Source: Octopus vulgaris (lineage: Eukaryota). From it: a DNA stretch of 64,000 nt. Positions within the stretch are counted from its first letter, which is position 1, and the number at the start of each line of letters is the position of its first letter. The translations under genes and the position numbers were made by a program. The notes below the pieces were generated by a model. That model did no database searches and was not told the origin of the DNA. It was given only the letters and a program-made list of their open reading frames with translations. Below are positions 4,807 to 53,466 of this stretch, in pieces. The DNA is taken from the NCBI GenBank assembly GCA_951406725.2, contig OX597826.1:65348001-65412000 (forward strand). The letters run 5' to 3'.

Positions 4807-4840
4807 TATTATTATTATTATAATTATTATTATTATTATT

Positions 4841-6970
4841 CAGTAGTTTTATTTTTATTTTTATAGCGTGCTTTCACTTCACTACCGAGCGCAGCTCTGT
4901 GTGCCTTGGGTATGTGCTGTGATTTGTTGTGATGCTCTGATGGTTATTGTATGGAAAGTGTTCTGCGTAGGATGTGTGCAGTGCCTAGTAGTGCAATTTT
5001 CTGTATGTTATATGTGTTTGTAAGTCCTGGTGTTTTTGTTATGTATTTGTCTGAATATTTTTTTATCATGCCTAATGCACCTACTATGATAGGAATTGTT
5101 TCTGTTTTCAGATTCCACATTCTAATTACCTCTATTTCCAGGTCTTTGTATTTTGAGAGTTTCTCCATTTCTTTTAGAGACACGTTGTCATCTGCCGGTA
5201 CTGATACATCAATTAGAAAGCATTTTTTTCTTCATGGTCTCTGACAACTATATCTGGTCTGTTGGCCTTAATTTCTCTATCTGTGTGTATCGGCATATCT
5301 CAGAGTATGGTTGCTTTCTCGTTTTCTGTGACCTTTTCTGGTGTGTGCCTATACCATCTTTTTTCTGTTGTTATTCCATAATGTTGGCATAGCTTCCAAT
5401 GTATGTAAGTTCCAACTCTGTCATGTCTGTGAATATATTCCTTCTTAGCCAGGACTGGGCAGCTAGAGATAATATGATTTATTGTTTCTTGTCCATCTCC
5501 ACATATTCTGCAGTTACTTGTAATATTTCTTTTCATTACATGTTTTTGGTAATTTCTGGTGGGGAGGCTTTGGTCTTGTGCTGCAATTAAAAATCCCTCT
5601 GTTTCTGCTTTGAGTCCTAAGCTTCTCAACCATTGCTGGGATTTTTCTTTGTCTATTTCTTTTGCGTTTAGTTTAGTCCAGTATTTATCATGAAGGGGCT
5701 TTTCTTGCCATCGTTTTATCATGGTTCGTTGCTGTTCTATTTTTAGTTTGGATATCATTTTTTTTATAGATTTTGTTGTTTCTTCATCTTCTTCTTCTTC
5801 TTCATGTTTATTAGGTGGTATGATTTCTTGTTTGTATTTGTCAGCTTCCTTAAATACTGAGAACAGTTTTTTGTTTTGCTCGTGTTTTGCCGCTATCTGG
5901 ATCAGTTTTCCTTCCTTCTGAAGTAGATATTTTTGCAGTCCTATGGTGGTTATTTTATAGTAGTTTTCCAGCTGTATAAGGCCTCTACCACCTTCTATAC
6001 GTTGTATATATAGTCTTTCTATGTCAGATTTTGGGTGATGCATCCTAGATCCTGTCATTATTTTTCTTGTTTTCCTGTCTATTTTGGTCAGTTCATTTCG
6101 TGTCCAGTTAAGGATATTGTAGCTGTAACTTATAACTGGGACAGCTAAAGTGTTGATACCTATTATCTTGTTTTTAGCATTGAGCTCTGTGTTTAGTATT
6201 GATCTAACTCGTCTATAATATTCTTTTTTTATTTTCTCTTTCATTTGTGTGTGTTGTGTCTTATCTAGTTCATGGATTCCTAAGTATTTGTAAGTTTGGC
6301 TTTGGTCTAATTCTTTTATTTCATTTGCTTCATCTAGTGTGATGTTGTTACTCTTAACTAGTTTTCCTCTTTTCATGGTTACTTTGGCGCATTTTTCTAA
6401 TCCAAATTTCATATCTATTTCTTTGGTAAATCCATGAACTGTCTTTAATAGTGTTTCCAGCTGTTTGTCATTTGCAGCGTATAGTTTTAGGTCATCCATA
6501 TATAAAAGGTGGCTGATCGTTTTGCCGTAACATTTATATCCGCATCCAGTTCTATTTAACATATCAGATAGAGGTGACAGTGCTAAGCAGAAAAGGAGTG
6601 GAGAGAGCGTATCTCCCTGGAATATTCCTCTTCTAATGGGGATGTCTTTGGTTTTCATGAGTCCCTCTTTTGTTTGGAAGTGTAGGACTGTTTGCCATTT
6701 ATTCATAGAGTGCTCTATGAATTTTATGATTGTTGGTGCTACTTTGTTAATGGCTAGTGTTTCGAGGATCCATGTGTGGGGGATGCTATCAAACGCCTTT
6801 TTGTAGTCAATCCAGGCCATACTGAGGCCTTTCTTCTTTCTGTGGCTGTCTTCAGTTATGGCTTTATTAATCATTAGTTGATCTTTACAGCCATATGAGC
6901 CTTTGTGGCATCCTTTCTGCTCTTCTGGGAACAGTTTGTTTTCGTCCAGGTGCTTGTTCAGCCTTTGTGA
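4841..6970 (-). mobile_element. 5'-truncated R4/Dong-clade non-LTR retrotransposon (RT, CCHC knuckle, restriction-like endonuclease), inactive
   Basis: RT motifs WIDYKKAFDS, GIFQGDTLSPLLF and YMDD; knuckle CRICGDGQETINHIISSC; REL motif RPD..LIDVS. Premature TGA at 5300. (TAA)n on both flanks, the known Dong target. Confidence 0.93.
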
Positions 6971-7027
<57 letters not shown>

Positions 7028-14399: not shown

Positions 14400-14499
14400 N
14401 NNNNNNNNNNNNNNNNNNNNNNNNNNNNNNNNNNNNNNNNNNNNNNNNNNNNNNNNNNNNNNNNNNNNNNNNNNNNNNNNNNNNNNNNNNNNNNNNNNN
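14400..14499. other. Assembly gap (100 N)
   Basis: Run of N. Confidence 1.
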
Positions 14500-21700: not shown

Positions 21701-24700
21701 TTGAAGCCAAATATATCTCTAATCATACATTATTTTCTTTCAAAATTTGCAGAATACATACCTCCTTGATTGGGTTGCTGTGTGCTTTGTTCTCCATTTC
21801 CTACAACTTGAGGAATTTCCGTAGTACCTTAAAAGAAATGTACAAAAATAAGGAACTGAACAACAACATATGTACTAAGATGTAAGATACAATATGGATA
21901 TTATACTATGATATATCCACACATTACATAGATCTCCAATTAGTCCCTCATGTCCTAACCTACACACGATGTCCTACTATAACAACACTCATCATAGCTT
22001 GTCCCTCTACTGGATCAACATTTGGCAGGATCTCCTCCTCCCATTTATTCTCCACATTCAGCAGCCTTTCATAATGTCTTCTCCAAGACTCTTTCTCTTT
22101 CAGAATCATTAAAAACAAGTGCACCGTCATCCATGCCCACACATTTCCCTCCTGTGACATCACAATTTTCTTTCACACACTGTCTTGCAATCTGAAATAC
22201 TTCTGTTCTTTGGTCCTCAAGTCACTGAACATTGGCAAACTTCTTCTTTTCTGCTTCTCCCTTAGCTATGTAGAGCTGTTACACAGCCTCCCCTTGACTA
22301 TCTGTTACAGTTCCTAAGGTACCTCCACTCTTCCAGGCTTTCCAGGCCTGTTTCTTTGCTCTAATGCCCTTGTCTACCATATTATTCCACCATCACATTT
22401 CTCTGGGTCTGGAAGGGACTTTGCCCCAGCCCCACATTTGGTCTGTGGTGCTCAGTAAGCTGTTTCGTAGGAATTTCCAACTACTCACTATGTCCAAAGT
22501 ATGTTGCTCCTCCTCTCCTCCCACTCATCAAATTTCTCAATGACGATCTCCCTAAATCTCTGACCATGTGAAGTGTTCTTTAGCTTCCAAATCTTCTTTT
22601 CTGCATTGGTCTGCTGCTTGGCATTCTTCGACCTCGAGTCTAAAGTCAATAATGACAAATCTATTCTGGGGTTTACATTCTTCACCCGGGAGTGCCTTTG
22701 TATTTATGAGCAACCCTGTGTACCACTGTCTGTTGATGGTGAAATAAATCTGGCTAGCAAAATCACATGATTGATAGGTTATCAACTGGTTGCCTGGCTT
22801 CCTGAAGTTAGTGTTGCAGATTAATAGGTTACATACATATGCGACTATGGATGCATTTAACATAGTATGAGATAAGCCTCTGTTATCAGGGTAGAGATGA
22901 ACTTACATTTCAGATCTTAATCCAGAGAAGTTAAAACATGTTTTTACGCGTTAATGTAATATATGAGTTCCAATCGGAAGGTATTGAGACATCTCTTATG
23001 GTAACAGGATTGACTATGCCAAGACTGACCTGCAGCTGTCATGTAGACTCATTAATTAATCCATTCACACTCGCATCAGTTATAGCTGTGTTTCACAATA
23101 AATTGTATGCTCTATGATCATCTTTGAAATGACACCTTTTTCTGCTGCCAAGAATCTCATTAATTGTGTCGAGAGAGTCAAAGGAATTTGCCACACACGG
23201 GATTTCTCTTCTTGAGAAAAATTGAAGCCAAATATATCTCTAATCATACATTATTTTCTTTCAAAATTTGCAGAATACATACCTCCTTGATTGGGTTGCT
23301 GTGTGCTTTGTTCTCCATTTCCTACAACTTGAGGAATTTCCGTAGTACCTTAAAAGAAATGTACAAAAATAAGGAACTGAACAACAACATATGTACTAAG
23401 ATGTAAGATACAATATGGATATTATACTATGATATATCCACACATTACATAGATCTCCAATTAGTCCCTCATGTCCTAACCTACACACGATGTCCTACTA
23501 TAACAACACTCATCATAGCTTGTCCTCTACTGGATCAACATTTGGCAGGATCTCCTCCTCCCATTTATTCTCCACATTCAGCAGCCTTTCATAATGTCTT
23601 CTCCAAGACTCTTTCTTTTCAGAATCATTAAAAACAAGTGCACCGTCATCCATGCCCACACATTTCCCTCCTGTGACATCACAATTTTCTTTCACACACT
23701 GTCTTGCAATCTGAAATACTTCTGTTCTTTGGTCCTCAAGTCACTGAACATTGGCAAACTTCTTCTTTTCTGCTTCTCCCTTAGCTATGTAGAGCTGTTA
23801 CACAGCCTCCCCTTGACTATCTGTTACAGTTCCTAAGGTACCTCCACTCTTCCAGGCTTTCCAGGCCTGTTTCTTTGCTCTAATGCCCTTGTCTACCATA
23901 TTATTCCACCATCACATTTCTCTGGGTCTGGAAGGGACTTTGCCCCAGCCCCACATTTGGTCTGTGGTGCTCAGTAAGCTGTTTCGTAGGAATTTCCAAC
24001 TACTCACTATGTCCAAAGTATGTTGCTCCTCCTCTCCTCCCACTCATCAAATTTCTCAATGACGATCTCCCTAAATCTCTGACCATGTGAAGTGTTCTTT
24101 AGCTTCCAAATCTTCTTTTCTGCATTGGTCTGCTGCTTGGCATTCATCGACCTCGAGTCTAAAGTCAATAATGACAAATCTATTCTGGGGTTTACATTCT
24201 TCACCCGGGAGTGCCTTTGTATTTATGAGCAACCCTGTGTACCACTGTCTGTTGATGGTGAAATAAATCTGGCTAGCAAAATCACATGATTGATAGGTTA
24301 TCAACTGGTTGCCTGGCTTCCTGAAGTTAGTGTTGCAGATTAATAGGTTACATACATATGCGACTATGGATGCATTTAACATAGTATGAGATAAGCCTCT
24401 GTTATCAGGGTAGAGATGAACTTACATTTCAGATCTTAATCCAGAGAAGTTAAAACATGTTTTTACGCGTTAATGTAATATATGAGTTCCAATCGGAAGG
24501 TATTGAGACATCTCTTATGGTAACAGGATTGACTATGCCAAGACTGACCTGCAGCTGTCATGTAGACTCATTAATTAATACATTCACACTCGCATCAGTT
24601 ATAGCTGTGTTTCACAATAAATTGTATGCTCTATGATCATCTTTGAAATGACACCTTTTTCTGCTGCCAAGAATCTCATTAATTGTGTCGAGAGAGTCAA

Positions 24701-26226
24701 AGGAATTTGCCACACACGGGATTTCTCTTCTTGAGAAAAATTGAAGCCAAATATATCTCTAATCATACATTATTTTCTTTCAAAATTTGCAGAATACATA
24801 CCTCCTTGATTGGGTTGCTGTGTGCTTTGTTCTCCATTTCCTACAACTTGAGGAATTTCCGTAGTACCTTAAAAGAAATGTACAAAAATAAGGAACTGAA
24901 CAACAACATATGTACTAAGATGTAAGATACAATATGGATATTATACTATGATATATCCACACATTACATAGATCTCCAATTAGTCCCTCATGTCCTAACC
25001 TACACACGATGTCCTACTATAACAACACTCATCATAGCTTGTCCCTCTACTGGATCAACATTTGGCAGGATCTCCTCCTCCCATTTATTCTCCACATTCA
25101 GCAGCCTTTCATAATGTCTTCTCCAAGACTCTTTCTTTTCAGAATCATTAAAAACAAGTGCACCGTCATCCATGCCCACACATTTCCCTCCTGTGACATC
25201 ACAATTTTCTTTCACACACTGTCTTGCAATCTGAAATACTTCTGTTCTTTGGTCCTCAAGTCACTGAACATTGGCAAACTTCTTCTTTTCTGCTTCTCCC
25301 TTAGCTATGTAGAGCTGTTACACAGCCTCCCCTTGACTATCTGTTACAGTTCCTAAGGTACCTCCACTCTTCCAGGCTTTCCAGGCCTGTTTCTTTGCTC
25401 TAATGCCCTTGTCTACCATATTATTCCACCATCACATTTCTCTGGGTCTGGAAGGGACTTTGCCCCAGCCCCACATTTGGTCTGTGGTGCTCAGTAAGCT
25501 GTTTCGTAGGAATTTCCAACTACTCACTATGTCCAAAGTATGTTGCTCCTCCTCTCCTCCCACTCATCAAATTTCTCAATGACGATCTCCCTAAATCTCT
25601 GACCATGTGAAGTGTTCTTTAGCTTCCAAATCTTCTTTTCTGCATTGGTCTGCTGCTTGGCATCCTTCGACCTCGAGTCTAAAGTCAATAATGACAAATC
25701 TATTCTGGGGTTTACATTTTCTACCCAGTATTAATTAATACTTTCACACTCGCATTAGTTATAGCAGAGTTTCACAATAAATTGTATGGTCTATGATAAT
25801 CTTTGAAATGACACCATTTTCTGCTGCCAAGAATCTCATTAATTGTGTCGAGAGAGTCAAAGGAATTTTGGAAATGGTCACAAGAAGTGATGACTCATGT
25901 ATCTTATGTTTATGACCCTGAAACTATGCTAAAAGTCAAACCACACTACAAATGAAAACATTTCAATATATTCAGCAAATCCAAGAGAATGGCCCAAGAC
26001 ATACAGTGCTGAAAAATGTTGATTTCTTTGTCACTGTACGTCACTGTGACTTGTCATCACACTTTATATAAATATTTTCTACATTAGGAAATCTCTTTGT
26101 CTTCACTCACTTTTTCAATATTTTCACACGTACATACACAAGCACACACACACACACACACACACACAAGTAAGTCCATAAATTAATCTTTACGGGATTT
26201 CTCTTCAAAATTCGCAGAGTACATAC

Positions 26227-26292
26227 CTCCTTGATTGGGTTGCGGTGTGCTTTGTTCTCCATTTCCTACAACTTGAGGACGTTCAGTAGTAA
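26227..26292 (-). CDS. Diverged paralog of the 66-nt exon (VTTERPQVVGNGEQSTPQPNQG)
   Basis: Same splice sites and length retained despite substitutions and different flanks. Confidence 0.65.
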
Positions 26293-26586
26293 CTTAAAAG
26301 AAATGAACAAAAATAAGGAACTGAACAACAACATATGTACTAAGATGTAAGATACAATATGGATATTATACTATGATATATTCACACATTACATAGTCCT
26401 GCAATCAGTCTCCCCATGGTCCAACTTACTTAAGTTCTCCAACCATAATGACACTCACCATATATATATTTTCATAAATATACATACATATACATACATA
26501 CACATGTGTGTATGTATATGTGTGTATATATAATGTAGATATATATATACATATATATATAGATATACATACATATATATATATAC

Positions 26587-26632
<46 letters not shown>

Positions 26633-29600
26633 TCCAGAATACTTGCACTAATGTAAGCAATGTTGTATCAAGTGTGTAGTTTCAGGAAAGGACTAATTTG
26701 TGGGGAATACAGTGCTGAAATGATAAGTATGTTGTTTTCTTTGTCACTGTACGTCACTGTGTGTTTTTATAACCCTTTATATAAATATTTGCTACATTAG
26801 GAAATCTCTTTGTTTTCACTCAATTTTTAAATGTTTTCACACGTACATACACAAGCACACACACACACACACATACACACACACACATATACTCATAGGT
26901 AAGTCCATATATTAATCTTTACGGGATTTCTCTTCTTCAAAAAAAATTAAAGCCAAGTATATCTCTAATCAGGACTTTCAGCAGTAACTTAAAAGAAATG
27001 AACATTAAAAACAAGTGCACCGTCATCCATGCCCACACATTTTCCTCCTGTGACATCACAATTTTCTTTCACACACTGCGTTGCCATCTGAAATACTTCT
27101 GTTCTTTGGTCCTCACGTAACTGCACATTTGCAAACTTCTTCTTTTCTGCTTCTCCCTTGGCTATGTAGAGCTGTCACACAACCTCCCCTTGACTATCTG
27201 TTACAGTTCCAAGGTAACCTCACTCTTCCAGGCTTTCCAGGCCTGTTTCTTTGCTCTAATGCCCTTGTCTACTATATTATTCCACCATCACATTTCTCTG
27301 GGTCTGGAAGGGACTTTGCCCCAGCCCCACATTTGGTCTGTGGTGCTCAGTAAGCTATTTCGTAGGAATTTCCAACTACGCACTATGTCCAAAGAATGTG
27401 GCTCCTCCCCCCACTCATCAAATTTCTCGATGACGATCTCCCTAAATCTCTGACCATGTGAAGGGTTCTTTAGCTTCCAAATCTTCTTTTCTGCATTGGT
27501 CTGCTGCTTGGCATTCATCGACCTCGAGTCTAAAGTCAATAATGACAAATCTATTCTGGGGTTTACATTCTTCACCCGGGAGTGCCTTTGTATTTATGAG
27601 CAACCCTGTGTACCACTGTCTGTTGATGGTGAAATAAATCTGGCTAGCAAATCACATGATTGATAGGTTATCAACTGGTTGCCTGGCTTCCTGAAGTTAG
27701 TGTTGCAGATTAATAGGTTACATACATATGCGACTATGGATGCATTTAACATAGTATGAGATAAGCCTCTGTTATCAGGGTAGAGATGAACTTACATTTC
27801 AGATCTTAATCCAGAGAAGTTAAAACATGTTTTTACGCGTTAATGTAATATATGAGTTCCAATCGGAAGGTATTGAGACATCTCTTATGGTAACAGGATT
27901 GACTATGCCAAGACTGACCTGCAGCTGTCATGTAGACTCATTAATTAATACATTCACACTCACATCAGTTATAGCTGTGTTTCACAATAAATTGTATGCT
28001 CTATGATCATCTTTGAAATGACACCTTTTTCTGCTGCCAAGAATCTCATTAATTGTGTCGAGAGAGTCAAAGGAATTTGCCACACACGGGATTTCTCTTC
28101 TTGAGAAAAATTGAAGCCAAATATATCTCTAATCATACATTATTTTCTTTCAAAATTTGCAGAATACATACCTCCTTGATTGGGTTGCTGTGTGCTTTGT
28201 TCTCCATTTCCTACAACTTGAGGAATTTCCGTAGTACCTTAAAAGAAATGTACAAAAATAAGGAACTGAACAACAACATATGTACTAAGATGTAAGATAC
28301 AATATGGATATTATACTATGATATATCCACACATTACATAGATCTCCAATTAGTCCCTCATGTCCTAACCTACACACGATGTCCTACTATAACAACACTC
28401 ATCATAGCTTGTCCCTCTACTGGATCAACATTTGGCAGGATCTCCTCCTCCCATTTATTCTCCACATTCAGCAGCCTTTCATAATGTCTTCTCCAAGACT
28501 CTTTCTTTTCAGAATCATTAAAAACAAGTGCACCGTCATCCATGCCCACACATTTCCCTCCTGTGACATCACAATTTTCTTTCACACACTGTCTTGCAAT
28601 CTGAAATACTTCTGTTCTTTGGTCCTCAAGTCACTGAACATTGGCAAACTTCTTCTTTTCTGCTTCTCCCTTAGCTATGTAGAGCTGTTACACAGCCTCC
28701 CCTTGACTATCTGTTACAGTTCCTAAGGTACCTCCACTCTTCCAGGCTTTCCAGGCCTGTTTCTTTGCTCTAATGCCCTTGTCTACCATATTATTCCACC
28801 ATCACATTTCTCTGGGTCTGGAAGGGACTTTGCCCCAGCCCCACATTTGGTCTGTGGTGCTCAGTAAGCTGTTTCGTAGGAATTTCCAACTACTCACTAT
28901 GTCCAAAGTATGTTGCTCCTCCTCTCCTCCCACTCATCAAATTTCTCAATGACGATCTCCCTAAATCTCTGACCATGTGAAGTGTTCTTTAGCTTCCAAA
29001 TCTTCTTTTCTGCATTGGTCTGCTGCTTGGCATCCTTCGACCTCGAGTCTAAAGTCAATAATGACAAATCTATTCTGGGGTTTACATTTTCTACCCAGTA
29101 TTAATTAATACTTTCACACTCGCATTAGTTATAGCAGAGTTTCACAATAAATTGTATGGTCTATGATAATCTTTGAAATGACACCATTTTCTGCTGCCAA
29201 GAATCTCATTAATTGTGTCGAGAGAGTCAAAGGAATTTTGGAAATGGTCACAAGAAGTGATGACTCATGTATCTTATGTTTATGACCCTGAAACTATGCT
29301 AAAAGTCATACCCCACTACAAATGAAAATATTTCAATATATTAGGGAAATCCAAGAGAATGTTCCAAGACAGTTCCTTGCTGTCACAACAAAGAAGAACT
29401 GAGAATGCTTGCACTAATGTCAGCAATGCTGTATGAAGTGTGTAGTTTCAGGAAAGGACTACTTTGGGGGAGATACAGTGTTGACATTATATGTATGTTG
29501 TTTTCTTTCTTACCATAAGCCACTGTGAGATTTCATAACACTTTATATATGCATTTGCTACATTAGGAAATCTCTTTGTCTTCATTCAATGTGCAGCAAA

Positions 29601-31175: not shown

Positions 31176-31229
<54 letters not shown>

Positions 31230-31235
31230 TAATAA

Positions 31236-31644
31236 AGTATGGCCTCGATTGACTACAAAGTATGGCCTGGATTGACTACAGGTATGGCCTGGATTGACTA
31301 CAAAGTATGGCCTGGATTGACTACAAAGTATGGCCTGGATTGACTACAAAGTATGGCCTGGATTGACTACAAAGTATGGCCTGGATTGACTACAAAGTAT
31401 GGCCTGGATTGACTACAAAGTATGGCCTGGATTGACTACAAAGTATGGCCTGGATTGACTACAAAGTATGGCCTGGATTGACTACAAAGTATGGTCTGGA
31501 TTGACTACAAAGTATGGCCTGGATTGACTACAAAGTATGGCCTGGATTGACTACAAGTATGACCTGGATTGACTACAAAGTATGGCCTGGATTGACTACA
31601 AAGTATGGCCTGGATTGACTACAAAGTATGGCCTGGATTGACTA
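31236..31644 (+). repeat. 23-bp tandem array AGTATGGCCTGGATTGACTACAA (~18 units)
   Basis: Unit identical to the Dong RT coding sequence for SMAWIDYK (e.g. 31799-31821). Confidence 0.95.
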
Positions 31645-33746
31645 TAATAAAGATCAACTAATGATTAATAAAGCCATAACTGAAGACAGCCACAGAAAGA
31701 AGAAAGGCCTCGGTATGGCCTGGATTGACTATAATAAAGATCAACTAATGATTAATAAAGCCATAACTGAAGACAGCCACAGAAAGAAGAAAGGCCTCAG
31801 TATGGCCTGGATTGACTACAAAAAGGCGTTTGATAGCATCCCCCACACATGGATCCTCGAAACACTAGCCATTAACAAAGTAGCACCAACAATCATAAAA
31901 TTCATAGAGCACTCTATGAATAAATGGCAAACAGTCCTACACCTTCAAACAAAAGAGGGACTCATGAAAACCAAAGACATCCCCATTAGAAGAGGAATAT
32001 TCCAGGGAGACATGCTCTCTCCACTCCTTTTCTGCTTGGCACTGTCACCTCTATCTGATATGCTAAATAGAACTGGATGCGGATATAAATGTTACGGCAA
32101 AACGATCAGCCACCTTTTATATATGGATGACCTAAAACTATACGCTGCAAATGACAAACAGCTGGAAACACTATTAAAGACATAGATATGAAATTTGGAT
32201 TAGAAAAATGCGCCAAAGTAACCATGAAAAGAGGAAAACTAGTTAAGAGTAACAACATCACACTAGATAAAACCAATGAAATAAAAGAATTAGACCAAAG
32301 CCAAACTTACAAATACTTAGGAATCCATGAACTAGATAAGACACAACACACACAAATGAAAGAGAAAATAAAAAAAGAATATTATAGACGAGTTAGATCA
32401 ATACTAAACACAGAGCTCAATGCTAAAAACAAGATAATAGGTATCAACACTTTAGCTGTCCCAGTTTTAAGTTACAGCTACAATATCCTTAACTGGACAC
32501 GAAATGAACTGACCAAAATAGATAGGAAAACAAGAAAAATAATGACAGGATCTAGGATGCATCACCCAAAATCTGACATAGAAAGACTATATATACAATG
32601 TATAGAAGGTGGTAGAGGCCTTATACAGCTGGAAAACTACTATAAAATAACCACCATAGGACTGCAAAAATATCTACTTCAGAAGGAAGGAAAACTGATC
32701 CAGATAGCGGCAGAACATGAGCAAAACAAAAAACTGTTCTCAGTATTTAAGGAAGCTGACAAATACAAACAAGAAATCATACCACCTAATAAACATGAAG
32801 AAGAAGATGAAGAAACAACAAAAGCTATAAAACAAATGAAATCCAAACTAAAAATAGAACAGCAACGGACCATGATAAAACGATGGCAAGAAAAGCCCCT
32901 TCATGGTAAATACTGGACTAAACTAAACGCAAAAGAAATAGACAAAGAAAAATCCCAGCAATGGTTGAGAAGCTCAGGACTCAAAGCAGAAACAGAGGGA
33001 TTTTTAATTGCAGCACAAGACCAAAGCCTTCCCACCAGAAATTACCAAAAACATGTAATGAAAAGAAATATTACAAGTAACTGCAGAATATGTGGAGATG
33101 GACAGGAAACAATAAATCATATTATCTCTAGCTGCCCAGTCCTGGCTAAGAAGGAATATATTCACAGACATGACAGAGTTGGAACCTACATACATTGGAA
33201 GCTATGCCAACATTATGGAATAACAACAGAAAAAAGATGGTATAGGCACACACCAGAAAAGGTCACAGAAAACGAGAAAGCAACCATACTCTGGGATATG
33301 CCGATACACACAGATAGAGAAATTAAGGCCAACAGACCAGATATAGTTGTCAGAGACCATGAAGAAAAAAATGCTTTCTAATTGATGTATCAATACCGGC
33401 TGATGACAACGTGTCTCTAAAAGAAATGGAGAAACTCTCAAAATACAAAACCTGGAAATAGAGGTAACTAGAATGTGGAATCTGAAAACAGAAACAATTC
33501 CTATCATAGTAGGTGCATTAGGCATGATAAAAAAATATTCAGACAAATACATAACAAAAACACCAGGACTTACAAACACATATAACACACAGAAAATTGC
33601 ACTACTAGGCACTGCACACATCCTACACAGAACACTTTCCATACAATAACCATCAGAGCATCACAACAAATCACAGCACATACCCAAGGCACACAGAGCT
33701 GCGCTCGGTAGTGAAGTGAAAGCACGCTATAAAAATAAAACTACTG
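31645..33746 (+). mobile_element. 5'-truncated R4/Dong element, copy A (frameshifted)
   Basis: Near-identical to 4841-6970. Deletion at ~32182 and frameshifts near 33370 and 33450. Ends ctactg + (TAA)n. Confidence 0.93.
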
Positions 33747-33750
33747 AATG

Positions 33751-33808
<58 letters not shown>

Positions 33809-33822
33809 TAATAATAATGATG

Positions 33823-33877
<55 letters not shown>

Positions 33878-34399
33878 GTAAAGTTAAGGCAGTACACCAG
33901 CTATATAATCTATGAGTAGATAAAGATATTATGGGTTTATCTAAAGAAAAAGAATTGCAACTAAGAGTATAATGGGCAAGTTTAGTAATGAATAGACTTA
34001 TTTAAAGCTGGATTAGATCAAATTGTTTAATTTTATTTATTGTAATAATTTTAATCAATCTACTTAGTTTACATTATTCAACATCATTCAAGTATACACT
34101 ATTAAGAACAATACAGGGTACTAGTTGTTGAATCAGAGAAAATAATTTCAATAGTGAGTTATTTATATCAAAAAAGGAATTTTCATTACTTCTACATTAA
34201 CTCCCGGACAAGATAGGGTTATAATACAGATTTATAGTGTAGGAAATTTCTATGGATTTAGATATTTTCTTCTTTATTCTTCAAATTTATGTTTAAGGTT
34301 GAATCAGTTTAGCATGTGAAGCTAATGATGGTGAATGGTTAATGGCTCTATATGAACCACACTGTCCCTAAATGAATCAAATAGCATGTTTAAGAATCC

Positions 34400-34960
34400 T
34401 TCATTTGAAAATTTATATCTTACTATAATCCCATCAGTGGCATATTTCCTGATAAATCTCTATTGGAGTATTACCTGGCAACATGGCAAGTTATATAAAC
34501 CTCTTATTGCATGTCAAATGATATGCAATGTGTTGATAATAAATTTTGCTGGTAAAACATGTAATAATTCAACACCCAGTTGGGTGCTTCTAGTAGACTG
34601 CATCTCTGCAGTTTTCCCCAGACAATGCATTATTACTTCTACTAAGATATGACCTGAGAAAATAGTTGGAAATCACCTTAACATTATAGATGAACTTGTG
34701 ACACATAGGGCTATTTGTACCCTTTGTTGAGGGAAGCACTCATGTAAAAACACGCTTGAAAGAAGGTAGCCATTAGGCCATTTGACATTAGGAATCTAGG
34801 TTGAAGTCTTCTAGAAGAAATGTAATGGCTGTCATCTAGTTGGTAGTACCTTTTCCATATTTTAAGGCTCTCTTTGAACAAATCCCTAAGATTTGGAGCA
34901 TCTGGATGATATGTAGTACATATTACTGTTTTGATGACTTTGTTAATAACTCACTATTGA
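34400..34960 (-). mobile_element. Highly decayed Penelope-like fragment (copy ~45950-46500)
   Basis: Minus-strand peptide VICTTYHPDAPNLRDLFKESLKIW resembles the PLE post-RT 'LVxTYHP..N' segment. Confidence 0.35.
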
Positions 34961-35218
34961 AATATGCCATCACTGTGTTACAGACTGAATATGAGCAAGA
35001 GGAAGCTTACAGGTATGGCATCTTCCCGGATGTACACCACAACGCAACCATGAGTTGTTACCTTCAAAATACGACATACTTTGGTATGTGTATTTCAGCA
35101 TCTGTTAAGTCAGCTGGAACACTAGTGTGATGCATGGGGTATCAGAAGAGGCCACTGGTCTGACATATCTATAAACACTCACACGCACACACATACACAC
35201 ACACTTATATTTGTATGT

Positions 35219-35282
<64 letters not shown>

Positions 35283-36579
35283 CCTTGTCTTCACATCACT
35301 TGATGGTTGCAAACAAGCATCACCATCACACAAGCAAAAGTAGTCGTCTGTATAAAAAAAAAAACATCTGACCATGGGAAAATGTTAAGGCACCAGCACC
35401 TGAGAGATCTATTTTGGTATAGATTTTATGGCTGGAAGCCCTTCCTAATGCCAACCACTTTACAAAGAGAGCTGGATACTTTTTACATGGTACCAGCACT
35501 AGCAAATCCTGCTTTGGCATGGCTTTTCTTAGTTGGATGCCCTTCAAAATGCCAACCTCTTTACAGTGTGGGCTGTATGCTTTTTACATGGCACAAGCAC
35601 CAGTGAGATCTCCAAGTAACTTGCAAGACAAATATCTTTTGAGAGGGGGAATACTGGATGTGGTGGCTTTGTGCCAGATGATGAGAGATGAGAGTATGAC
35701 AGAGGGAAAGAAACTATGGCTACCATAGTTGGGGGGAGAGAGCAAGAGAGAGAGAGAGAATTATCAAGAATGAGAGAGAGTGAGAGTGGAAGAGAATAAG
35801 AGTGAGAGAGATGGTGGTGATGTGTCAGGGCATACTCCTAAGCTATGGGAATGAGAATATAAATTAGATGGTAGAGCATTATTAATGGTACAAGTGGTGA
35901 GTAGGGAGATCATGTGAATGCAAAGAAAGGGGAAGGTGGAGAATACATAGAGGTGTGGAGGGACAACAGAATAGCAATGATACAGTGGACAGAGACAGAG
36001 CAGTGAGGACATGATTGGACTCTAGGAGTGAGGATGGAGAAATAAGTACTATGCATGAGAAAAGAAGAAATGTGAGGAAGAGAAGGGGAGATGTAGTTTG
36101 GTTTACTGGAGTAGGATGTGTGAAAAATGTTAATGTTTCATCTAAGTGAAACATGCAATGCTTCCGGAACTCAGTTTCACTCAAGTGAGCTAGTCTTCTC
36201 AAGAACCTCATATCATTAGACATCTTGGTTCATTGTCATCTACTCGGTGAGGCCCTCAGAGAATGATTTCCAGCAGCTAAGTCCAAAATATAGAGCAAGC
36301 TCATACAACACTGTCATACTCTCAGTGTGCATACGCAAACATATTATATTAGCCTCTATAGTGTTTCTCCACCTGCAAGATGTAGCAGCCAAATGTGCTT
36401 CTGATTATACCATTGCCTGAGATATATAGTGTGTAAATAAAAGACAAGGTAGGCTTGGCAGGAATATCTTTGATCATAAATCTACAGAAATAGAGGCTGA
36501 AGCTGGTATTAAAAAAATAAAAATAACAACAGTTAAGAGAACAAAAATCACATAAATCCAATTAAACATCCACTCTCAC

Positions 36580-36720
36580 CTCGTCCATTACTTGTAGCAC
36601 TTGTAGCACTTGTAGCACTTGTAGCACTTGTAGCACTTGTAGCATTATTTGTAGCACTTGGTGTTCTGCTTCTTCGAGCTACAAAGGAAAATACAAGACA
36701 AGAAAAAGATAGCGCATTAC
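36580..36720 (-). CDS. Phase-1 exon with in-frame (SAT)n expansion: GNALSFSCLVFSFVARRSRTPSATNNAT(SAT)5SNGR; alternative acceptor gives 36580-36678
   Basis: Acceptors ttttctaag| and ttcctttgtag| lie 42 nt apart in the same frame. Donor GAG|gtgaga. Lengths 141 and 99 nt. Confidence 0.6.
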
Positions 36721-42331: not shown

Positions 42332-42373
<42 letters not shown>

Positions 42374-42374
<1 letters not shown>

Positions 42375-42702
42375 TCATAGGTGCCCTGGGAATGATAGCG
42401 AAAGGGACTGATTGCTACCTAACTCAGATACCAGGAAACCCCAAACTGGCAGAAATTCAAAAGATAGTGCTCATGGGAACTGCTCATATCCTACGCAAAA
42501 TACTCTCTATGTAATCCCAAGGTTTAAAACAAACTTTTTTTTTTTATGTATTAGACATTCACTAGTACAACACCAAAAAAATCCCCAAATATATGGCACG
42601 CTAGGCATAACAACAACGTGAACTTCCAACCTGTTGTCTCTTGAGGTCTCTGGGTGAGACTTGGAGCCAACTTGTACAGACATAAAGCAAAAGTCAAACA
42701 TA

Positions 42703-42703
<1 letters not shown>
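42374..42703 (+). mobile_element. 3' fragment of R4/Dong subfamily C (copy 50772-51099)
   Basis: Translates VIGALGMIAKGTDCYLTQIPGNPKLAEIQKIVLMGTAHILRKILSM* plus UTR, between (TAA)n runs. Confidence 0.85.
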
Positions 42704-42786
<83 letters not shown>

Positions 42787-42791: not shown

Positions 42792-43294
42792 AAGTATGGC
42801 CTGGATTGACTATAAAGTATGGCCTGGATTGACTACAAAGTATGGCCTGGATTGACTATAAAGTATGGCCTGGATTGACTACAAAGTACGGCCTGGATTG
42901 ACTACAAAGTATGGCCTGGATTGACTACAAAGTATGGCCTGGATTGACTACAAAGTATGGCCTGGATTGACTATAAAGTATGGCCTGGATTGACTACAAA
43001 GTATGGCCTGGGTTGACTACAAAGTATGGCCTGGATTGACTACAAAGTATGGCCTGGATTGACTACAAAGTATGGCCTGGATTGACTACAAAGTATGGCC
43101 TGGATTGACTACAAAGTATGGCCTGGGTTGACTACAAAGTATGGCCTGGATTGACTACAAAGTATGGCCTGGATTGACTACAAGTATGGCCTGGATTGAC
43201 TACAAAGTATGGCCTGGATTGACTACAAAGTATGGCCTGGATTGACTACAAAGTATGGCCTGGATTGACTACAAAGTATGGCCTGGATTGACTA
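42792..43294 (+). repeat. 23-bp Dong-derived tandem array (~22 units)
   Basis: Same unit as 31236. Confidence 0.95.
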
Positions 43295-45034
43295 TAATAA
43301 AGATCAAATAATGATTAATAAAGCCATAACTGAAGACAGCCACAGAAAGAAGAAAGGCCTCAGTATGGCCTGGATTGACTATAATAAAGATCAACTAATG
43401 ATTAATAAAGCCATAACTGAAGACAGCCACAGAAAGAAGAAAGGCCTCAGTACGGCCTGGATTGACTACAAAAAGGCGTTTGATAGCATCCCCCACACAT
43501 GGATCCTCGAAACACTAGCCATTAACAAAGTAGCACCAACAATCATAAAATTCATAGAGCACTCTATGAATAAATGGCAAACAGTCCTACACCTCCAAAC
43601 AAAAGAGGGACTCATGAAAACCAAAGACATCCCCATTAGAAGAGGAATATTCCAGGGAGACATGCTCTCTCCACTCCTTTTCTGCTTGGCACTGTCACCT
43701 CTATCTGATATGCTAAATAGAACTGGATGCGGATATAAATGTTACGGCAAAACGATCAGCCACCTTTTATATATGGATGACCTAAAACTATACGCTGCAA
43801 ATGACAAACAGCTGGAAACACTATTAAAGACAGTTCATGGATTTACCAAAGAAATAGATATGAAATTTGGATTAGAAAAATGCGCCAAAGTAACCATGAA
43901 AAGAGGAAAACTAGTTAAGAGTAACAACATCACACTAGATAAAACCAATGAAATAAAAGAATTAGACCAAAGCCAAACTTACAAATACTTAGGAATCCAT
44001 GAACTAGATAAGACACAACACACACAAATGAAAGAGAAAATAAAAAAGAATATTATAGACGAGTTAGATCAATACTAAACACAGAGCTCAATGCTAAAAA
44101 CAAGATAATAGGTATCAACACTTTAGCTGTCCCAGTTATAAGTTACAGCTACAATATCCTTAACTGGACACGAAATGAACTGACCAAAATAGATAGGAAA
44201 ACAAGAAAAATAATGACAGGATCTAGGATGCATCACCCAAAATCTGACATAGAAAGACTATATATACAATGTATAGAAGGTGGTAGAGGCCTTATACAGC
44301 TGGAAAACTACTATAAAATAACCACCATAGGACTGCAAAAATATCTACTTCAGAAGGAAGGAAAACTGATCCAGATAGCGGCAAAACACGAGCAAAACAA
44401 AAAACTGTAGTCAGTATTTAAGGAAGCTGACAAATACAAACAAGAAATCATACGACCTAATAAACATGAAGAAGAAGAAGTTGAAGAAACAACAAAAGCT
44501 ATAAAACAAATGAAATCCAAACTAAAAATAGAACAGCAACGAACCATGATAAAACGATGGCAAGAAAAGCCCCTTCATGGTAAATACTGGACTAAACTAA
44601 ACGCAAAAGAAATAGACAAAGAAAAATCCCAGCAATGGTTGAGAAGCTCAGGACTCAAAGCAGAAACAGAGGGATTTTTAATTGCAGCACAAGACCAAAG
44701 CCTCCCCACCAGAAATTACCAAAAACATGTAATGAAAAGAAATATTACAAGTAACTGCAGAATATGTGGAGATGGACAGGAAACAATAAATCATATTATC
44801 TCTAGCTGCCCAGTCCTGGCTAAGAAGGAATATATTCACAGACATGACAGAGTTGGAACCTACATACATTGGAAGCTATGCCAACATTATGGAATAACAA
44901 CAGAAAAAAGATGGTATAGGCACACACCAGAAAAGGTCACAGAAAACGAGAAAGCAACCATACTCTGTGATATGCCGATACACACAGATAGAGAAATTAA
45001 GGCCAACAGACCAGATATAGTTGTCGAGACCATG
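43295..45034 (+). mobile_element. R4/Dong copy B, truncated at both ends, with frameshift and stop
   Basis: Near-identical to copies A and C. Breaks off in the REL domain. Confidence 0.92.
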
Positions 45035-45352
45035 AAGTTCCTGTTATTGTAGGTGCCCTAGGTATAATAAGTTCCTGTTATTGTAGGTGCCCTAGGTATG
45101 ATAAAAAAGGGATGTCAGAAACACCTAGACAATATCCCTGGAAAACCATGTCTCAAGGAAATCCAAAAGATTGTGCTAACAAGTACTGCCCACATCCTTA
45201 GAAAAACCCTATCAATGTAAATGTCTGTGTTTGCATTACATGGAGATATATCTCTACTTCCCCTCCCCAAGCTTTCAGCTATATTTCAACAACTCTTAAC
45301 CTTCACTTGCCCTAGGGCGCTGGGTGTGCCCCGGCAGGTGATTGCATCAAAC
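45035..45352 (+). mobile_element. 3' fragment of R4/Dong subfamily D, with a 34-bp duplication at its 5' end
   Basis: Translates VPVIVGALGMIKKGCQKHLDNIPGKPCLKEIQKIVLTSTAHILRKTLSM* plus UTR and (TAA)n. Confidence 0.85.
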
Positions 45353-45369
45353 ATAATAATAATAATAAT

Positions 45370-45422
<53 letters not shown>

Positions 45423-48075
45423 GTAAAGTTAAGGCAGTACACCAGCTATATAATCTATGAGTAGATAAAGATATTATGGGTTTATCTAAAGAAAAAGAAT
45501 TGCAACTAAGAGTATAATGGGCAAGTTTAGTAATGAATAGACTTATTTAAAGTTGGATTAGATCAAATTGTTTAATTTTATTTATAGTAATAATTTTAAT
45601 CAATCTACTTAGTTTACGTTATTCAACATCATTCAAGTATACACTATTAAGAACAATACAGGGTACTAGTTGTTGAATCAGAGAAAATAATTTCAATAGT
45701 GAGTTATTTATATCAAAAAAGGAATTTTCATTACTTCTACATTAACTCCCGGACAAGATAGGGTTATAATACAGATTTATAGTGTAGGAAATTTCTATGG
45801 ATTTAGATATTTTCTTCTTTATTCTTCAAATTTATGTTTAAGGTTGAATCAGTTTAGCATGTGAAGCTAATGATGGTGAATGGTTAATGGCTCTATATGA
45901 ACCACACTGTCCCTAAATGAATCAAATAGCATGTTTAAGAATCCTTCATTTGAAAATTTATATCTTACTATAATCCCATCAGTGGCATATTGCCTGATAA
46001 ATCTCTATTGGAGTATTACCTGGCAACATGGCAAGTTATATAAACCTCTTATTGCATGTCAAATGATATGCAATGTGTTGATAATAAATTTTGCTGGTAA
46101 AACATGTAATAATTCAACACCCAGTTGGGTGCTTCTAGTAGACTGCATCTCTGCAGTTTTCCCCAGACAATGCATTATTACTTCTACTAAGATATGACCT
46201 GAGAAAATAGTTGGAAATCACCTTAACATTATGGATGGACTTGTGACACGGAGGGCTATTTGTACCCTTTGTTGAGGGAAGCACTCATGTAAAAACACGC
46301 TTGAAAGAAGGTAGTCATTAGGCCATTTGACATTAGGAATCTAGGTTGAAGTCTTCTAGAAGAAATGTGATGGCTGTCATCTAGTTGGTAGTACCTTTTC
46401 CATATTTTAAGGCTCTCTTTGAACAAATCCCTATGATTTGAAGCATCTGGATGATATGTAGTACATATTACTGTTTTGATGACTTGGTTAATATATGCCA
46501 TCACTGTGTCACAGACTGAATATGAGCAAGAGGAAGCTTACAGGTATGGCATCTTCCCGGATGTACACCACAACGCAACCATGAGTTGTTACCTTCAAAA
46601 TACGACATAATTTCGTATGTGTATTTCAGCATCTGTTAAGTCAGCTGGAACACTAGTGTGATGCATGGGGTATCAGAAGAGGCCACTGGTCTGACATATC
46701 TATAAACACTCACACGCACACACATACACACACACTTATATTTGTATGTGTGTGTGTGTGTGTGTGTGTGTGAATCCTTGTCTTCACATCACTTGATGGT
46801 TGCAAACAAGCATCACCATCACACAAGCAAAAGTAGTCTTCTATAAAAAAAAAAAAACATCTGACCATGGGAAAATGTTAAGGCACCAGCACCTGAGAGA
46901 TCTATTTTGGTATAGATTTTATGGCTGGAAGCCCTTCCTAATGCCAACCACTTTACAAAGAGAGCTGGATACTTTTCACATGGTACCAGCACTAGCAAAT
47001 CCTGCTTTGGCATGGCTTTTCATAGTTGGATGCCCTTCAAAATGCCAACCTCTTTACAGTGTGGGCTGTATGCTTTTTACATGGCACAAGCACCAGTGAG
47101 ATCTCCAAGTAACTTGCAAGACAAATATCTTTTGAGAGGGGGAATACTGGATGTGGTGGCTTTGTGCCAGATGATGAGAGATGAGAGTATGACAGAAGGA
47201 AAGAAACTATGGCTACCATAGTTGGGGGGAGAGAGCAAGAGAGAGAGAGAGAGAGAATTATCAAGAATGAGAGAGAGTGAGAGTGGAAGAGAATAAGAGT
47301 GAGAGAGATGGTGGTGATGTGTCAGGGCATACTCCTAAGCTATGGGAATGAGAATATAAATTAGATGGTAGAGCATTATTAATGGTACAAGTGGTGAGTA
47401 GGGAGATCATGTGAATGCAAAGAAAGGGGAAGGTGGAGAATACATAGAGGTGTGGAGGGACAACAGAATAGCAATGATACAGTGGACAGAGACAGAGCAG
47501 TGAGGACATGATTGGACTCTAGGAGTGAGGATGGAGAAATAAGTACTATGCATGAGAAAAGAAGAAATGTGAGGAAGAGAAGGGGAGATGTAGTTTGGTT
47601 TACTGGAGTAGGATGTGTGAAAAATGTTAATGTTTCATCTAAGTGAAACATGCAATGCTTCCGGAACTCAGTTTCACTCAAGTGAGCTAGTCTTCTCAAG
47701 AACCTCATATCATTAGACATCTTGGTTCATTGTCATCTACTCGGTGAGGCCCTCAGAGAATGATTTCCAGCAGCTAAGTTCAAAATATAGAGCAAGCTCA
47801 TACAACACTGTCATACTCTCAGTGTGCATACACAAACATATTATATTAGCCTCTATAGTGTTTCTCCACCTGCAAGATGTAGCAGCCAAATGTGCTTCTG
47901 ATTATACCATTGCCTGAGATATATAGTGTGTAAATAAAAGACAAGGTAGGCTTGGCAGGAATATCTTTGATCATTAATCTACAGAAGTAGAGGCTGAAGC
48001 TGGTATTAAAAAATAAAAATAACAACAGTTAAGAGAACAAAAATCACATAAATCCAATTAAACATCCACTCTCAC

Positions 48076-51202: not shown

Positions 51203-51428
51203 AAGTATGGCCTGGATTGACTACAAAGTATGGCCTGGATTGACTACAAGTATGGCCTGGATTGACTACAAAGTATGGCCTCGATTGACTATAAAGTATG
51301 GCCTGGATTGACTACAAAGTATGGCCTGGTTTGACTACAAGTATGGCCTGGATTGACTACAAAGTATGGCCTGGGTTGACTACAAAGTATGGCCTGGATT
51401 GACTACAAAGTATGGCCTGGATTGACTA
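51203..51428 (+). repeat. 23-bp Dong-derived tandem array (~10 units)
   Basis: Same unit as 31236. Confidence 0.95.
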
Positions 51429-53466
51429 TAATAAAGATCAACTAATGATTAATAAAGCCATAACTGAAGACAGCCACAGAAAGAAGAAAGGCCTCAGTAC
51501 GGCCTGGATTGACTACAAAAAGGCGTTTGATAGCATCCCCCACACATGGATCCTCGAAACACTAGCCATTAACAAAGTAGCACCAACAATCATAAAATTC
51601 ATAGAGCACTCTATGAATAAATGGCAAACAGTCCTACACCTCCAAACAAAAGAGGGACTCATGAAAACCAAAGACATCCCCATTAGAAGAGGAATATTCC
51701 AGGGAGACATGCTCTCTCCACTCCTTTTCTGCTTGGCACTGTCACCTCTATCTGATATGCTAAATAGAACTGGATGCGGATATAAATGTTACGGCAAAAC
51801 GATCAGCCACCTTTTATATATGGATGACCTAAAACTATACGCTGCAAATGACAAACAGCTGGAAACACTATTAAAGACAGTTCATGGATTTACCAAAGAA
51901 ATAGATATGAAATTTGGATTAGAAAAATGCGCCAAAGTAACCATGAAAAGAGGAAAACTAGTTAAGAGTAACAACATCACACTAGATAAAACCAATGAAA
52001 TAAAAGAATTAGACCAAAGCCAAACTTACAAATACTTAGGAATCCATGAACTAGATAAGACACAACACACACAAATGAAAGAGAAAATAAAATAAGAATA
52101 TTATAGACGAGTTAGATCAATACTAAACACAGAGCTCAATGCTAAAAACAAGATAATAGGTATCAACACTTTAGCTGTCCCAGTTATAAGTTACAGCTAC
52201 AATATCCTTAACTGGACACGAAATGAACTGACCAAAATAGATAGGAAAACAAGAAAAATAATGACAGGATCTAGGATGCATCACCCAAAATCTGACATAG
52301 AAAGACTATATATACAATGTATAGAAGGTGATAGAGGCCTTATACAGCTGGAAAACTACTATAAAATAACCACCATAGGACTGCAAAAATATCTACTTCA
52401 GAAGGAAAACTGATCCAGATAGCGGCAAAACATGAGCAAAACAAAAAACTGTTCTCAGTATTTAAGGAAGCTGACAAATACAAACAAGAAATCATACCAC
52501 CTAATAAACATGAAGAAGAAGAAGTTGAAGAAACAACAAAAGCTATAAAACAAATGAAATCCAAACTAAAAATAGAACAGCAACGAACCATGATAAAACG
52601 ATGGCAAGAAAAGCCCCTTCATGGTAAATACTGGACTAAACTAAACGCAAAAGAAATAGACAAAGAAAAATCCCAGCAATGGTTGAGAAGCTCAGGACTC
52701 AAAGCAGAAACAGAGGGATTTTTAATTGCAGCACAAGACCAAAGCCTCCCCACCAGAAATTACCAAAAACATGTAATGAAAAGAAATATTACAAGTAACT
52801 GCAGAATATGTGGAGATGGACAGGAAACAATAAATCATATTATCTCTAGCTGCCCAGTCCTGGCTAAGAAGGAATATATTCACAGACATGACAGAGTTGG
52901 AACCTACATACATTGGAAGCTATGCCAACATTATGGAATAACAACAGAAAAAAGATGGTATAGGCACACACCAGAAAAGGTCACAGAAAACGAGAAAGCA
53001 ACCATACTCTGGGATATGCCGATACACACAGATAGAGAAATTAAGGACAACAGACCAGATATAGTTGTCAGAGACCATGAAGAAAAAAAATGCTTTCTAA
53101 TTGATGTATCAATACCAGCTGATGACAACGTGTCTCTAAAAGAAATGGAGAAACTCTCAAAATACAAAGACCTGGAAATAGAGGTAACTAGAATGTGGAA
53201 TCTGAAAACAGAAACAATTCCTATCATAGTAGGTGCATTAGGCATGATAAAAAAATATTCAGACAAATACATAACAAAAACACCAGGACTTACAAACACA
53301 TATAACACACAGAAAATTGCACTACTAGGCACTGCACACATCCTACACAGAACACTTTCCATACAATAACCATCAGAGCATCACAACAAATCACAGCACA
53401 TACCCAAGGCACACAGAGCTGCACTCGGTAGTGAAGTGAAAGAACGCTATAAAAATAAAACTACTG
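51429..53466 (+). mobile_element. R4/Dong copy C (stop at ~52093, frameshift ~52405)
   Basis: RT, CCHC and REL motifs. Ends ctactg + (TAA)n. Confidence 0.93.

What the first reader, a model, noticed from the sequence alone, without database searches (positions are those of the whole stretch)
31236..31821. Reiterated 5' junction: 23-bp and 87-bp repeats of the RT's own coding sequence
Seen: between the TAA target and the truncated element lie ~18 copies of AGTATGGCCTGGATTGACTACAA and then two 87-bp units joined through gacta-TAA-taaagatc, i.e. with a target-like triplet at the joint. Paralogs carry ~22 + 2 units (42792) and ~10 + 1 units (51203); the independent insertion at 6970 has none. The three arrays descend from one insertion. 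Inference: it was seeded by repeated template jumping during target-primed reverse transcription and then evolved as a minisatellite.
Basis: partly seen in the sequence, partly recalled or inferred. Interest (0 to 1): 0.75.

Follow-up and report, generated by a model that had tools for sequence, protein, structure and literature searches.

The report
Minisatellite born at retrotransposon insertion joint
A young, broken jumping gene in this animal genome carries 20-base and 87-base pieces of its own coding sequence repeated at its front end; the first repeat was likely a joining error made during insertion, and ordinary DNA repeat turnover then changed the copy numbers, so this is a clear example of known processes rather than a new system.

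Summary
A 5'-truncated, (TAA)n-inserted R2-like (Dong-R4-type) retrotransposon starts at 31735. Upstream lie 17 units of 23 bp and two B-TAA-A blocks, all taken from its own RT coding sequence. Paralogs carry 21+2 and 9+1 units and come from segmental duplication of one insertion. The 87-bp joint appears in public contigs at about five times single-joint depth, in 1 of 4 runs tested. Differing counts and point variants shared between units show that most units arose after insertion. One 23-nt extra piece (20 nt of element plus TAA) is enough to seed everything. The seed was most likely made while the cDNA end was joined to the target. A very young second family in the window has a 34-bp duplication with a TAA-like joint, and 3 of 5 go-back joints with linkers in public contigs carry TAA, against 0 of 10 skip joints. 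Whether the RT or a host Pol-theta-type polymerase did it cannot be told, and a purely post-insertion route remains possible. Such junctions are a minority (0 of 17 in related metagenome loci). Reiterated R2 5' junctions and transposon-derived minisatellites are published.

The parts
31179..31235 (+). (TAA)n target, upstream side; ends TGA-TAA-TAA
31236..31624 (+). 17 short units (B + CAA; 23 bp, two of 22 bp) of RT coding sequence
31625..31711 (+). B (20 nt) + TAA linker (31645-31647) + A (64 nt): one 87-bp unit
   Evidence: joint seen in run X1
31712..31734 (+). second B + TAA linker (31732-31734)
31735..33748 (+). collinear 5'-truncated RLE-type non-LTR retrotransposon (RT, CCHC knuckle, endonuclease region, 3' UTR); frame broken in this copy
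33749..33877 (+). (TAA)n target, downstream side
42793..43384 (+). paralogous array: 21 short units, B-TAA-A, B-TAA
43385..45034 (+). paralogous element body; its last ~383 nt are replaced by a younger insertion
45035..45353 (+). independent 319-bp 5'-truncated insertion of a related family, with a 34-bp tandem duplication (45035-45104) at its 5' junction and TAATAA at the joint
51204..51431 (+). paralogous array: 9 short units and B-TAA
51432..53468 (+). paralogous element body
4839..6972 (-). independent insertion of the same family with a clean 5' junction; gives the native order A-B

Best explanation
This is a minisatellite made of a truncated Dong-R4-type retrotransposon's own coding sequence; it was likely seeded by one to three template switches while the new cDNA was being joined to the upstream (TAA)n target, and its copy numbers then changed after insertion. 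Likely steps: (1) reverse transcription stopped at the start of A, whose first letters TAA match the target; (2) the unfinished end paired with the target, copied about 3 nt of it and let go; (3) it re-primed on element sequence at the end of B and copied 20 nt; (4) it joined the target for good. That leaves (TAA)n-B-TAA-A-B. Two perfect 20-nt B copies 87 bp apart, and the imperfect repeats TGATAATAA / TGACTATAA 23 bp apart, would then drive slippage and unequal exchange, giving the 87-bp and 23-bp units. Segmental duplication copied the locus three times. Shown: the anatomy, the paralogy, the post-insertion turnover. Inferred: the timing of the seed and the order of switches. Open: the enzyme. 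I put a host Pol-theta-type repair polymerase slightly ahead of the element's RT (about 0.35 against 0.30 of the total).
For: Turnover after insertion: counts are 17/21/9 and 2/2/1. Substitutions recur in several units and across paralogs: A13G in 3 units of 2 arrays, C21T in 4 units of 2 arrays, G11C in 2 arrays. Two variants are shared between a short unit and a B outside the short array (T5C, A1G). Seed at insertion: the insertion is young (1.5% from another family copy; joint seen in 1 of 4 runs in a fully listed region), yet it holds two non-native joints within 90 bp. The insertion at 45035 is present in only one of three paralogs that differ by 0.4-0.7%, and has both a ~383-nt deletion ending exactly at its 5' start and a 34-bp duplication with TAATAA at the joint, although no TAA run remains upstream. 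In public contigs, 3 of 5 distinct go-back joints with listed linker letters have a TAA-phase linker (units of 108, 87 and 36 bp), against 0 of 10 skip joints (hypergeometric 10/455 = 0.02 by hand, on rows picked by depth). Go-back joints reach depths of 139-833 where single joints lie near 45-78, so other arrays probably exist. Literature: extra nucleotides at LINE 5' junctions are common (about half of ZfL2-2 in zebrafish, PMC4245944; 14.6% of truncated L1, PMC2912911); an R2 junction with three tandem ~20-nt copies is printed in PMC3774820 Fig. 5 legend; Pol-theta insertions are iterative and mostly under 25 bp (PMC12426944).
Against: A route with no insertion-time event gives the same sequence: a junction-spanning 87-bp duplication, then a 64-bp deletion over the 2-nt microhomology AG shared by the starts of A and B. 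43 of 47 short units end in native CAA, not TAA, so the minimal seed needs a further exchange with the native B, or a second primary switch. The 34-bp joint differs from native sequence by one G>A change, so it can be read as a plain microhomology duplication plus one substitution. Read laying listed no go-back joint without linker letters (table 5: 15 of 227 rows shown, 12 of 12, all skips), so the linker comparison is biased, and contigs do not show whether the other joints lie at 5' junctions. Only 2 of 4 TAA-linked breakpoints fall on a target-like site (7/9 match, top 3.3% of positions, best of four offsets); the 87-bp joint does not (5/9, 43%). Window counts are small: 2 of 5 independent element 5' junctions against 0 of 4 other TAA edges. 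Related metagenome loci: 0 of 17 TAA-to-coding edges (14 non-redundant) are duplicated.
Confidence: 0.65

Rival explanations
1. Wholly post-insertion. A clean insertion starting at A gained a tandem duplication with one breakpoint in the upstream (TAA)n, which explains the TAA linker. It then lost 64 bp over the AG microhomology, and slippage did the rest.
For: The sequence allows it: target-TAAAG fused to TATGG is exactly the start of A joined to B over AG. Internal deletions are common in the family (227 joint rows over four runs). Turnover after insertion is shown.
Against: It needs two independent rare rearrangements within 90 bp in under about 1.5% divergence, both before the segmental duplications. 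It explains the 45035 case only with an added substitution. None of 4 host-facing TAA edges in the window is duplicated (small sample).
Confidence: 0.24
2. The RT wrote most of the units in one go, by stuttering, serial end-to-end jumps between RNA fragments, or copying a small RNA circle.
For: Most short units end in native CAA (43 of 47). R2 proteins template-jump in vitro and head-to-tail products were seen with endonuclease-dead protein (PMC11371274 passages). Three tandem copies at one R2 junction are published.
Against: Counts differ among paralogs and variants are shared among units, which needs duplication after mutation. Two unit lengths with a target linker do not fit one circle. No Rfam family, ribozymes included, reaches its threshold in the window.
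Confidence: 0.07
3. Nested insertion with deletion. A second truncated copy inserted into the (TAA)n tail of an older copy and joined far upstream, near the older copy's 5' end.
For: This kind of event happened at 45035, where a related family replaced ~383 nt of the host copy. It could explain the 108-bp joint in X1, which lies about 230 nt from the tail.
Against: Here the join would have to land within 87 nt of the new copy's own start out of about 1.9 kb. In the 34-bp case both copies start at the same base. No skip joint with a TAA linker was listed (0 of 10).
Confidence: 0.03
4. Assembly artefact.
For: Five of 47 short units lack one A of an AAA run, as long-read errors would. The 23-bp counts were not checked in reads.
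Against: The 87-bp joint is in X1 contigs at about five times single-joint depth. Units carry distinct shared substitutions and the paralogs differ in flanks and inserts.
Confidence: 0.01

Closest known systems
Reiterated 5' junctions of R2 elements (Eickbush, Burke and Eickbush 2013, PMC3774820, Fig. 5 legend; read: outline, passages and section 14)
   Same: An RLE-type element with short tandem reiterations at the 5' junction, up to three ~20-nt copies in one printed junction.
   Different: There the additions are described as often matching upstream 28S target sequence. Here the units are element-internal RT coding sequence at a truncated junction, with a 3-nt target linker, amplified to 9-21 copies.
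5' extra nucleotides of LINE insertions (ZfL2-2, L1; PMC4245944 and PMC2912911, passages) and the join / snap-back / extra-template junction classes of R2 PRINT (PMC11371274, PMC11331408, passages)
   Same: Sequence added at the cDNA 3' end before the final join; joins over 1-3 nt of microhomology.
   Different: The passages read do not describe same-strand re-copying of element sequence with a target linker, or later growth into an array.
Pol-theta templated insertions (review PMC12426944, passages; PolQ in 5' joining of linear group II intron cDNA, PMC3280974, passages)
   Same: Short (20-30 nt) pieces copied from either side of a break, patchwork of both ends, repeated rounds, minimal priming.
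   Different: Dependence on Pol-theta cannot be tested from sequence; the RT could leave the same trace.
Dong / Dong-R4 elements (TAA targeting: PMC3812793 and PMC3774820, passages; recently active in Octopus vulgaris: PMC13282606, passages)
   Same: Single RT-CCHC-endonuclease ORF, (TAA)n on both sides, frequent 5' truncation.
   Different: Clade placement was not tested with a named reference; the passages read do not mention junction arrays.
Transposon-derived minisatellites (review PMC9659126, passages)
   Same: Tandem arrays built from TE sequence, LINE ORF2 included, expanding by slippage and recombination.
   Different: Here the seed joint is still readable at the insertion junction of a young, probably polymorphic copy.

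Membership tests
RLE-type non-LTR retrotransposon | RT domain related to R2 | tested here: met
   Pfam RVT_1 E 1.4e-24; all 5 PDB matches are R2 proteins or R2-type RT entries, best E 1.1e-27
RLE-type non-LTR retrotransposon | C-terminal CCHC knuckle, RH motif and restriction-like endonuclease in the same ORF | tested here: met
   CRIC..HIISSC, HRHD and PDIVV..IDVSIP..K motifs translations (motif names from my own knowledge); matches to R2 C-terminal regions, E 1.8e-4 to 1.8e-3
Dong-R4 | Insertion into (TAA)n | tested here: met
   (TAA)n on both sides of the copies at 31735, 51432 and 6970; loose ends at the 3' end are TAA runs in 4 of 4 runs
Dong-R4 | RT phylogeny within the R4 clade | not tested
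   None of the 120 listed homologs is named Dong or R4; no named reference was available for a tree
Dong-R4 | HDV-like ribozyme at the 5' end | not testable with these tools
   All copies in the window are 5'-truncated; no Rfam hit
Minisatellite (variable-number tandem repeat) | Head-to-tail units of 10-100 bp with high identity | tested here: met
   TRF period 23, 94-97% matches; period 87, 96%
Minisatellite (variable-number tandem repeat) | Copy-number change and exchange of variants among units | tested here: met
   17/21/9 units among paralogs; shared variants. Allelic variation not tested
RT template-jump product | Added sequence copied from RNA in cDNA polarity at insertion | tested here: inconclusive
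   The octopus joints fit either strand; only L045 (another organism, one short-read contig) suggests extension of the cDNA-polarity strand
Pol-theta templated insertion | Short pieces templated from both sides of the break, minimal microhomology | tested here: met
   20 nt of element + 3 nt of target, 1-3 nt microhomologies
Pol-theta templated insertion | Genetic dependence on POLQ | not testable with these tools
   needs an insertion assay
Retrozyme / rolling-circle RNA array | One monomer with a self-cleaving ribozyme in each unit | tested here: not met
   Units are 23 and 87 bp of RT coding sequence; no Rfam match in the window

The most novel reading that the evidence does not exclude
In microsatellite-targeting retrotransposons, any abortive join that copies a few bases of the target rebuilds the very primer that started reverse transcription. 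The RT can then re-prime inside its own RNA, preferring target-like sites such as ATGATAAAA, which two families hit at the homologous position. Dong-R4 5' junctions would be a recurring, RT-driven birthplace of minisatellites, and each joint a record of how 5' joining proceeds.
Probability: 0.25. Interest if true: 0.55.

Novelty: new variant of a known kind. Interest (0 to 1): 0.3.

Why it matters
How the 5' end of a truncated non-LTR retrotransposon is joined, and by which polymerase, is still being worked out. A high-copy, recently active family whose target is a microsatellite leaves readable linkers at these joints, so a genome survey can count abortive joins and test for target-like re-priming sites. 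The locus also shows a minisatellite with its seed joint still legible. No function for the array is suggested, and each component process is already described.

Tried and rejected
No whole genome is held for this window, so the genome-wide junction survey could not be run. Substitutes: two read-laying runs on the repeat-free copy at 6970 (contigs only, tables capped) and 80 metagenome loci of distant relatives. In those loci 0 of 29 TAA-run ends and 0 of 17 TAA-to-coding edges carry a local duplication; short-read contigs may collapse arrays. Retrotransposition of the array as a unit was rejected: the three copies share several hundred to 2,800 bp of 3' flank. A rolling-circle RNA origin was rejected (two unit lengths, no ribozyme hit). 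The target-mimic test gave 2 of 4 and is inconclusive. No RNA holder was listed, which says nothing on expression. Summed contig depth was not used as a copy number. Absence of the 87-bp joint in X2, X3 and X7 is only a hint, since contigs show presence, not absence, and 76% of X2 was read. Earlier findings: nothing near this place or like this sequence; two searches listed other octopus retroelement notes, none on this structure among the 8 shown of 168 and 212. Ten literature searches returned no listing that describes element-internal arrays with target linkers at Dong-R4 junctions; subscription papers are not covered. McIntyre et al. 2025, Ichiyanagi et al. 2007, Kajikawa et al. 2012 and Bibillo and Eickbush 2004 were seen only as reference entries or through other papers' summaries and may bear on novelty. 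No supplements were read.

Full report
Observation. The arrays are in the sequence as described. The minus-strand copy at 6970 gives the native order: a 64-nt stretch A that starts TAAAG, then a 20-nt stretch B, then CAAAAAGG. At 31236 the + strand reads (TAA)n, 17 units of B+CAA, B-TAA-A, B-TAA, then the collinear element from 31735 to 33748 and (TAA)n again. The paralogs hold 21 short units with two TAA joints (42793) and 9 with one (51204). The intact copy has no direct repeat over 9 nt at spacings of 10-119, as in shuffles.

The element. It has one ORF with an RT (Pfam RVT_1, E 1.4e-24), a CCHC knuckle and an endonuclease region. Its closest solved structures are R2 proteins. It sits in (TAA)n on both sides, the known target of Dong elements (PMC3812793, passages), and Dong-R4 families are reported as recently active in Octopus vulgaris (PMC13282606, passages). 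Earlier notes on this genome call it octopus (not checked by me). R4-clade placement was not tested by a tree. Three more TAA-associated families with homologous C-termini occur in the window.

One insertion, three copies. The copies share 3' flanks (33808-36603 with 45353-48099; 45353-46007 with 53519-54176). Element bodies differ by 0.44-0.71% among themselves and by about 1.5% from the 6970 copy. They are one event.

Reality in reads. The repeat-free copy was laid on public contigs. The 87-bp joint with its linker is in run X1 at depth 327.5, where nine listed single joints lie at 50-78: about five copies, as 2+2+1 predicts. In the 409-bp region, where the joint tables were complete, it was seen in 1 of 4 runs (X1, not X2, X3, X7). 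X1 may be the source sample. The 23-bp joint was not reported, so those counts rest on the assembly.

Turnover after insertion is shown. Counts differ among paralogs. Substitutions recur among units and across paralogs (A13G three times, C21T four times, G11C twice), and two variants are shared between a short unit and a B outside the short array. Units were therefore copied after mutating. A single RT burst cannot account for the present array.

What is the seed? The smallest structure that needs an explanation is (TAA)n-B-TAA-A-B. From it, exchange between the B copies gives the 87-bp unit. Misalignment between the target end TGATAATAA and the unit end TGACTA(T/C)AA gives the 23-bp unit. Because 43 of 47 short units end in native CAA, one more exchange with the native B, or a second primary switch, is needed. 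So one to three switches, not twenty (inference).

Was the seed made at insertion? For: the insertion is young yet has two non-native joints within 90 bp. A second, independent case lies at 45035: a 319-bp piece of another family, present in one of the three paralogs only, replaced about 383 nt of the host copy and carries a 34-bp duplication with TAATAA at the joint. With the upstream TAA deleted at insertion, a later duplication could not have picked up that linker, unless it is native TGATAA with one G>A change. In public contigs, 17 linker rows were seen (12 of 83, 5 of 5), giving 15 distinct joints: 3 of 5 go-back joints have TAA-phase linkers (108, 87, 36 bp), a fourth (37 bp) is compatible but ambiguous, the fifth (depth 2.65) is not; 0 of 10 skip joints have them (for the rows; the rows read by eye). 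Four go-back joints have raised depth (139 to 833), which suggests more arrays. The 108-bp joint and the 34-bp joint break at the homologous target-like site ATGATAAAA in two families.

Against: the rows were picked by depth; linker-free go-backs were not listed; contigs do not place these joints relative to 5' ends. The 87- and 36-bp joints are not on target-like sites. A junction-spanning duplication plus a 64-bp deletion over AG gives the same sequence with no insertion-time event. In the window 2 of 5 independent element 5' junctions are duplicated against 0 of 4 other TAA edges, too few to decide. In 80 metagenome loci of relatives, 0 of 17 TAA-to-coding edges are duplicated; one locus, L045, has an internal 91-bp duplication whose linker is an inverted copy of nearby sequence, a snap-back pattern, from a single short-read contig.

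Which enzyme? The sequence does not say. Template jumping from RNA to the target end is a proposed R2/L1 joining route (PMC2912911, passages). Pol-theta makes iterative, mostly sub-25-bp insertions from both sides of a break (PMC12426944, passages) and adds extra nucleotides when a group II intron cDNA is joined upstream in Drosophila (PMC3280974, passages). R2-type RTs lack RNase H (my own knowledge), so re-copying the same RNA needs displacement or a second RNA. The 20-nt size fits Pol-theta. I give insertion-time seeding 0.65 in all, split about 0.35 host polymerase and 0.30 RT; purely post-insertion 0.24; whole array by RT 0.07.

Comparison and novelty. Reiterated 5' junctions are printed for R2, including three tandem ~20-nt copies (PMC3774820 section 14). 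Extra nucleotides at LINE 5' junctions are common. TE-derived minisatellites are reviewed (PMC9659126, passages). PMC2718515, PMC4370867, PMC11371274, PMC11331408, PMC13580325, PMC8967140 and bioRxiv 10.1101/2024.12.14.628481 were read as passages only. In ten searches of the open library I found no description of element-internal arrays with target linkers at junctions of a microsatellite-targeting element; several key papers are outside the library. This is a new variant of known processes, with no sign of function. Interest 0.3. The bolder reading, RT re-priming from a regenerated TAA primer, has probability about 0.25 and can be tested on any long-read octopus assembly.

Noticed in passing
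window 45035-45353: A very young 319-bp insertion of a related family replaced ~383 nt of the host copy's 3' end in one paralog only; 34-bp duplication at its 5' junction.
   Followed up: yes
window 42373-42705 and 50771-51101: Short 5'-truncated copy of another TAA-inserted family sits directly upstream of the array-bearing element (stacked insertions in one microsatellite); only ~25 bp of it remains in the 31236 copy after a deletion.
   Followed up: partly
window 3990-4258 (minus strand): 3' fragment of a fourth related family inserted in the TAA run of a host repeat (4238-4839 resembles 7063-7679 at 91%); the 6970 element sits in a TAA run of the other copy.
   Followed up: partly
window 8251-12333: Compound satellite of alternating 22-bp and 9-bp unit blocks, with a switch of orientation near 11942-11967; gives open frames of DIP-type repeats on the minus strand.
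   Followed up: no
window 12337-14398: AT-rich satellites (20/38/58-bp and 13-bp units); the 13-bp array reverses orientation near 13450; a 100-N gap follows at 14400-14499.
   Followed up: no
window 14500-29096: Tandem array of ~1.52-kb units at 98-99% identity (about 9-10 copies); no tRNA or Rfam hit.
   Followed up: partly
window 29100-61685: Nested segmental duplications at 93-99% identity with an ~11.5-kb period and internal deletions.
   Followed up: partly
window 58375-59478: Decayed ORFs that look like a Penelope-type RT by eye (no Pfam hit for 58882-59475).
   Followed up: no
element positions matching window 5937-6000 and 5068-5162 (runs X1, X3): Go-back joints of 36, 37 and 108 bp at depths 833, 503/417 and 139: probable further arrays of this family elsewhere in these genomes.
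   Followed up: partly
L045 1681-1851: Internal 91-bp duplication in a related element whose linker is an inverted copy of nearby sequence.
   Followed up: partly
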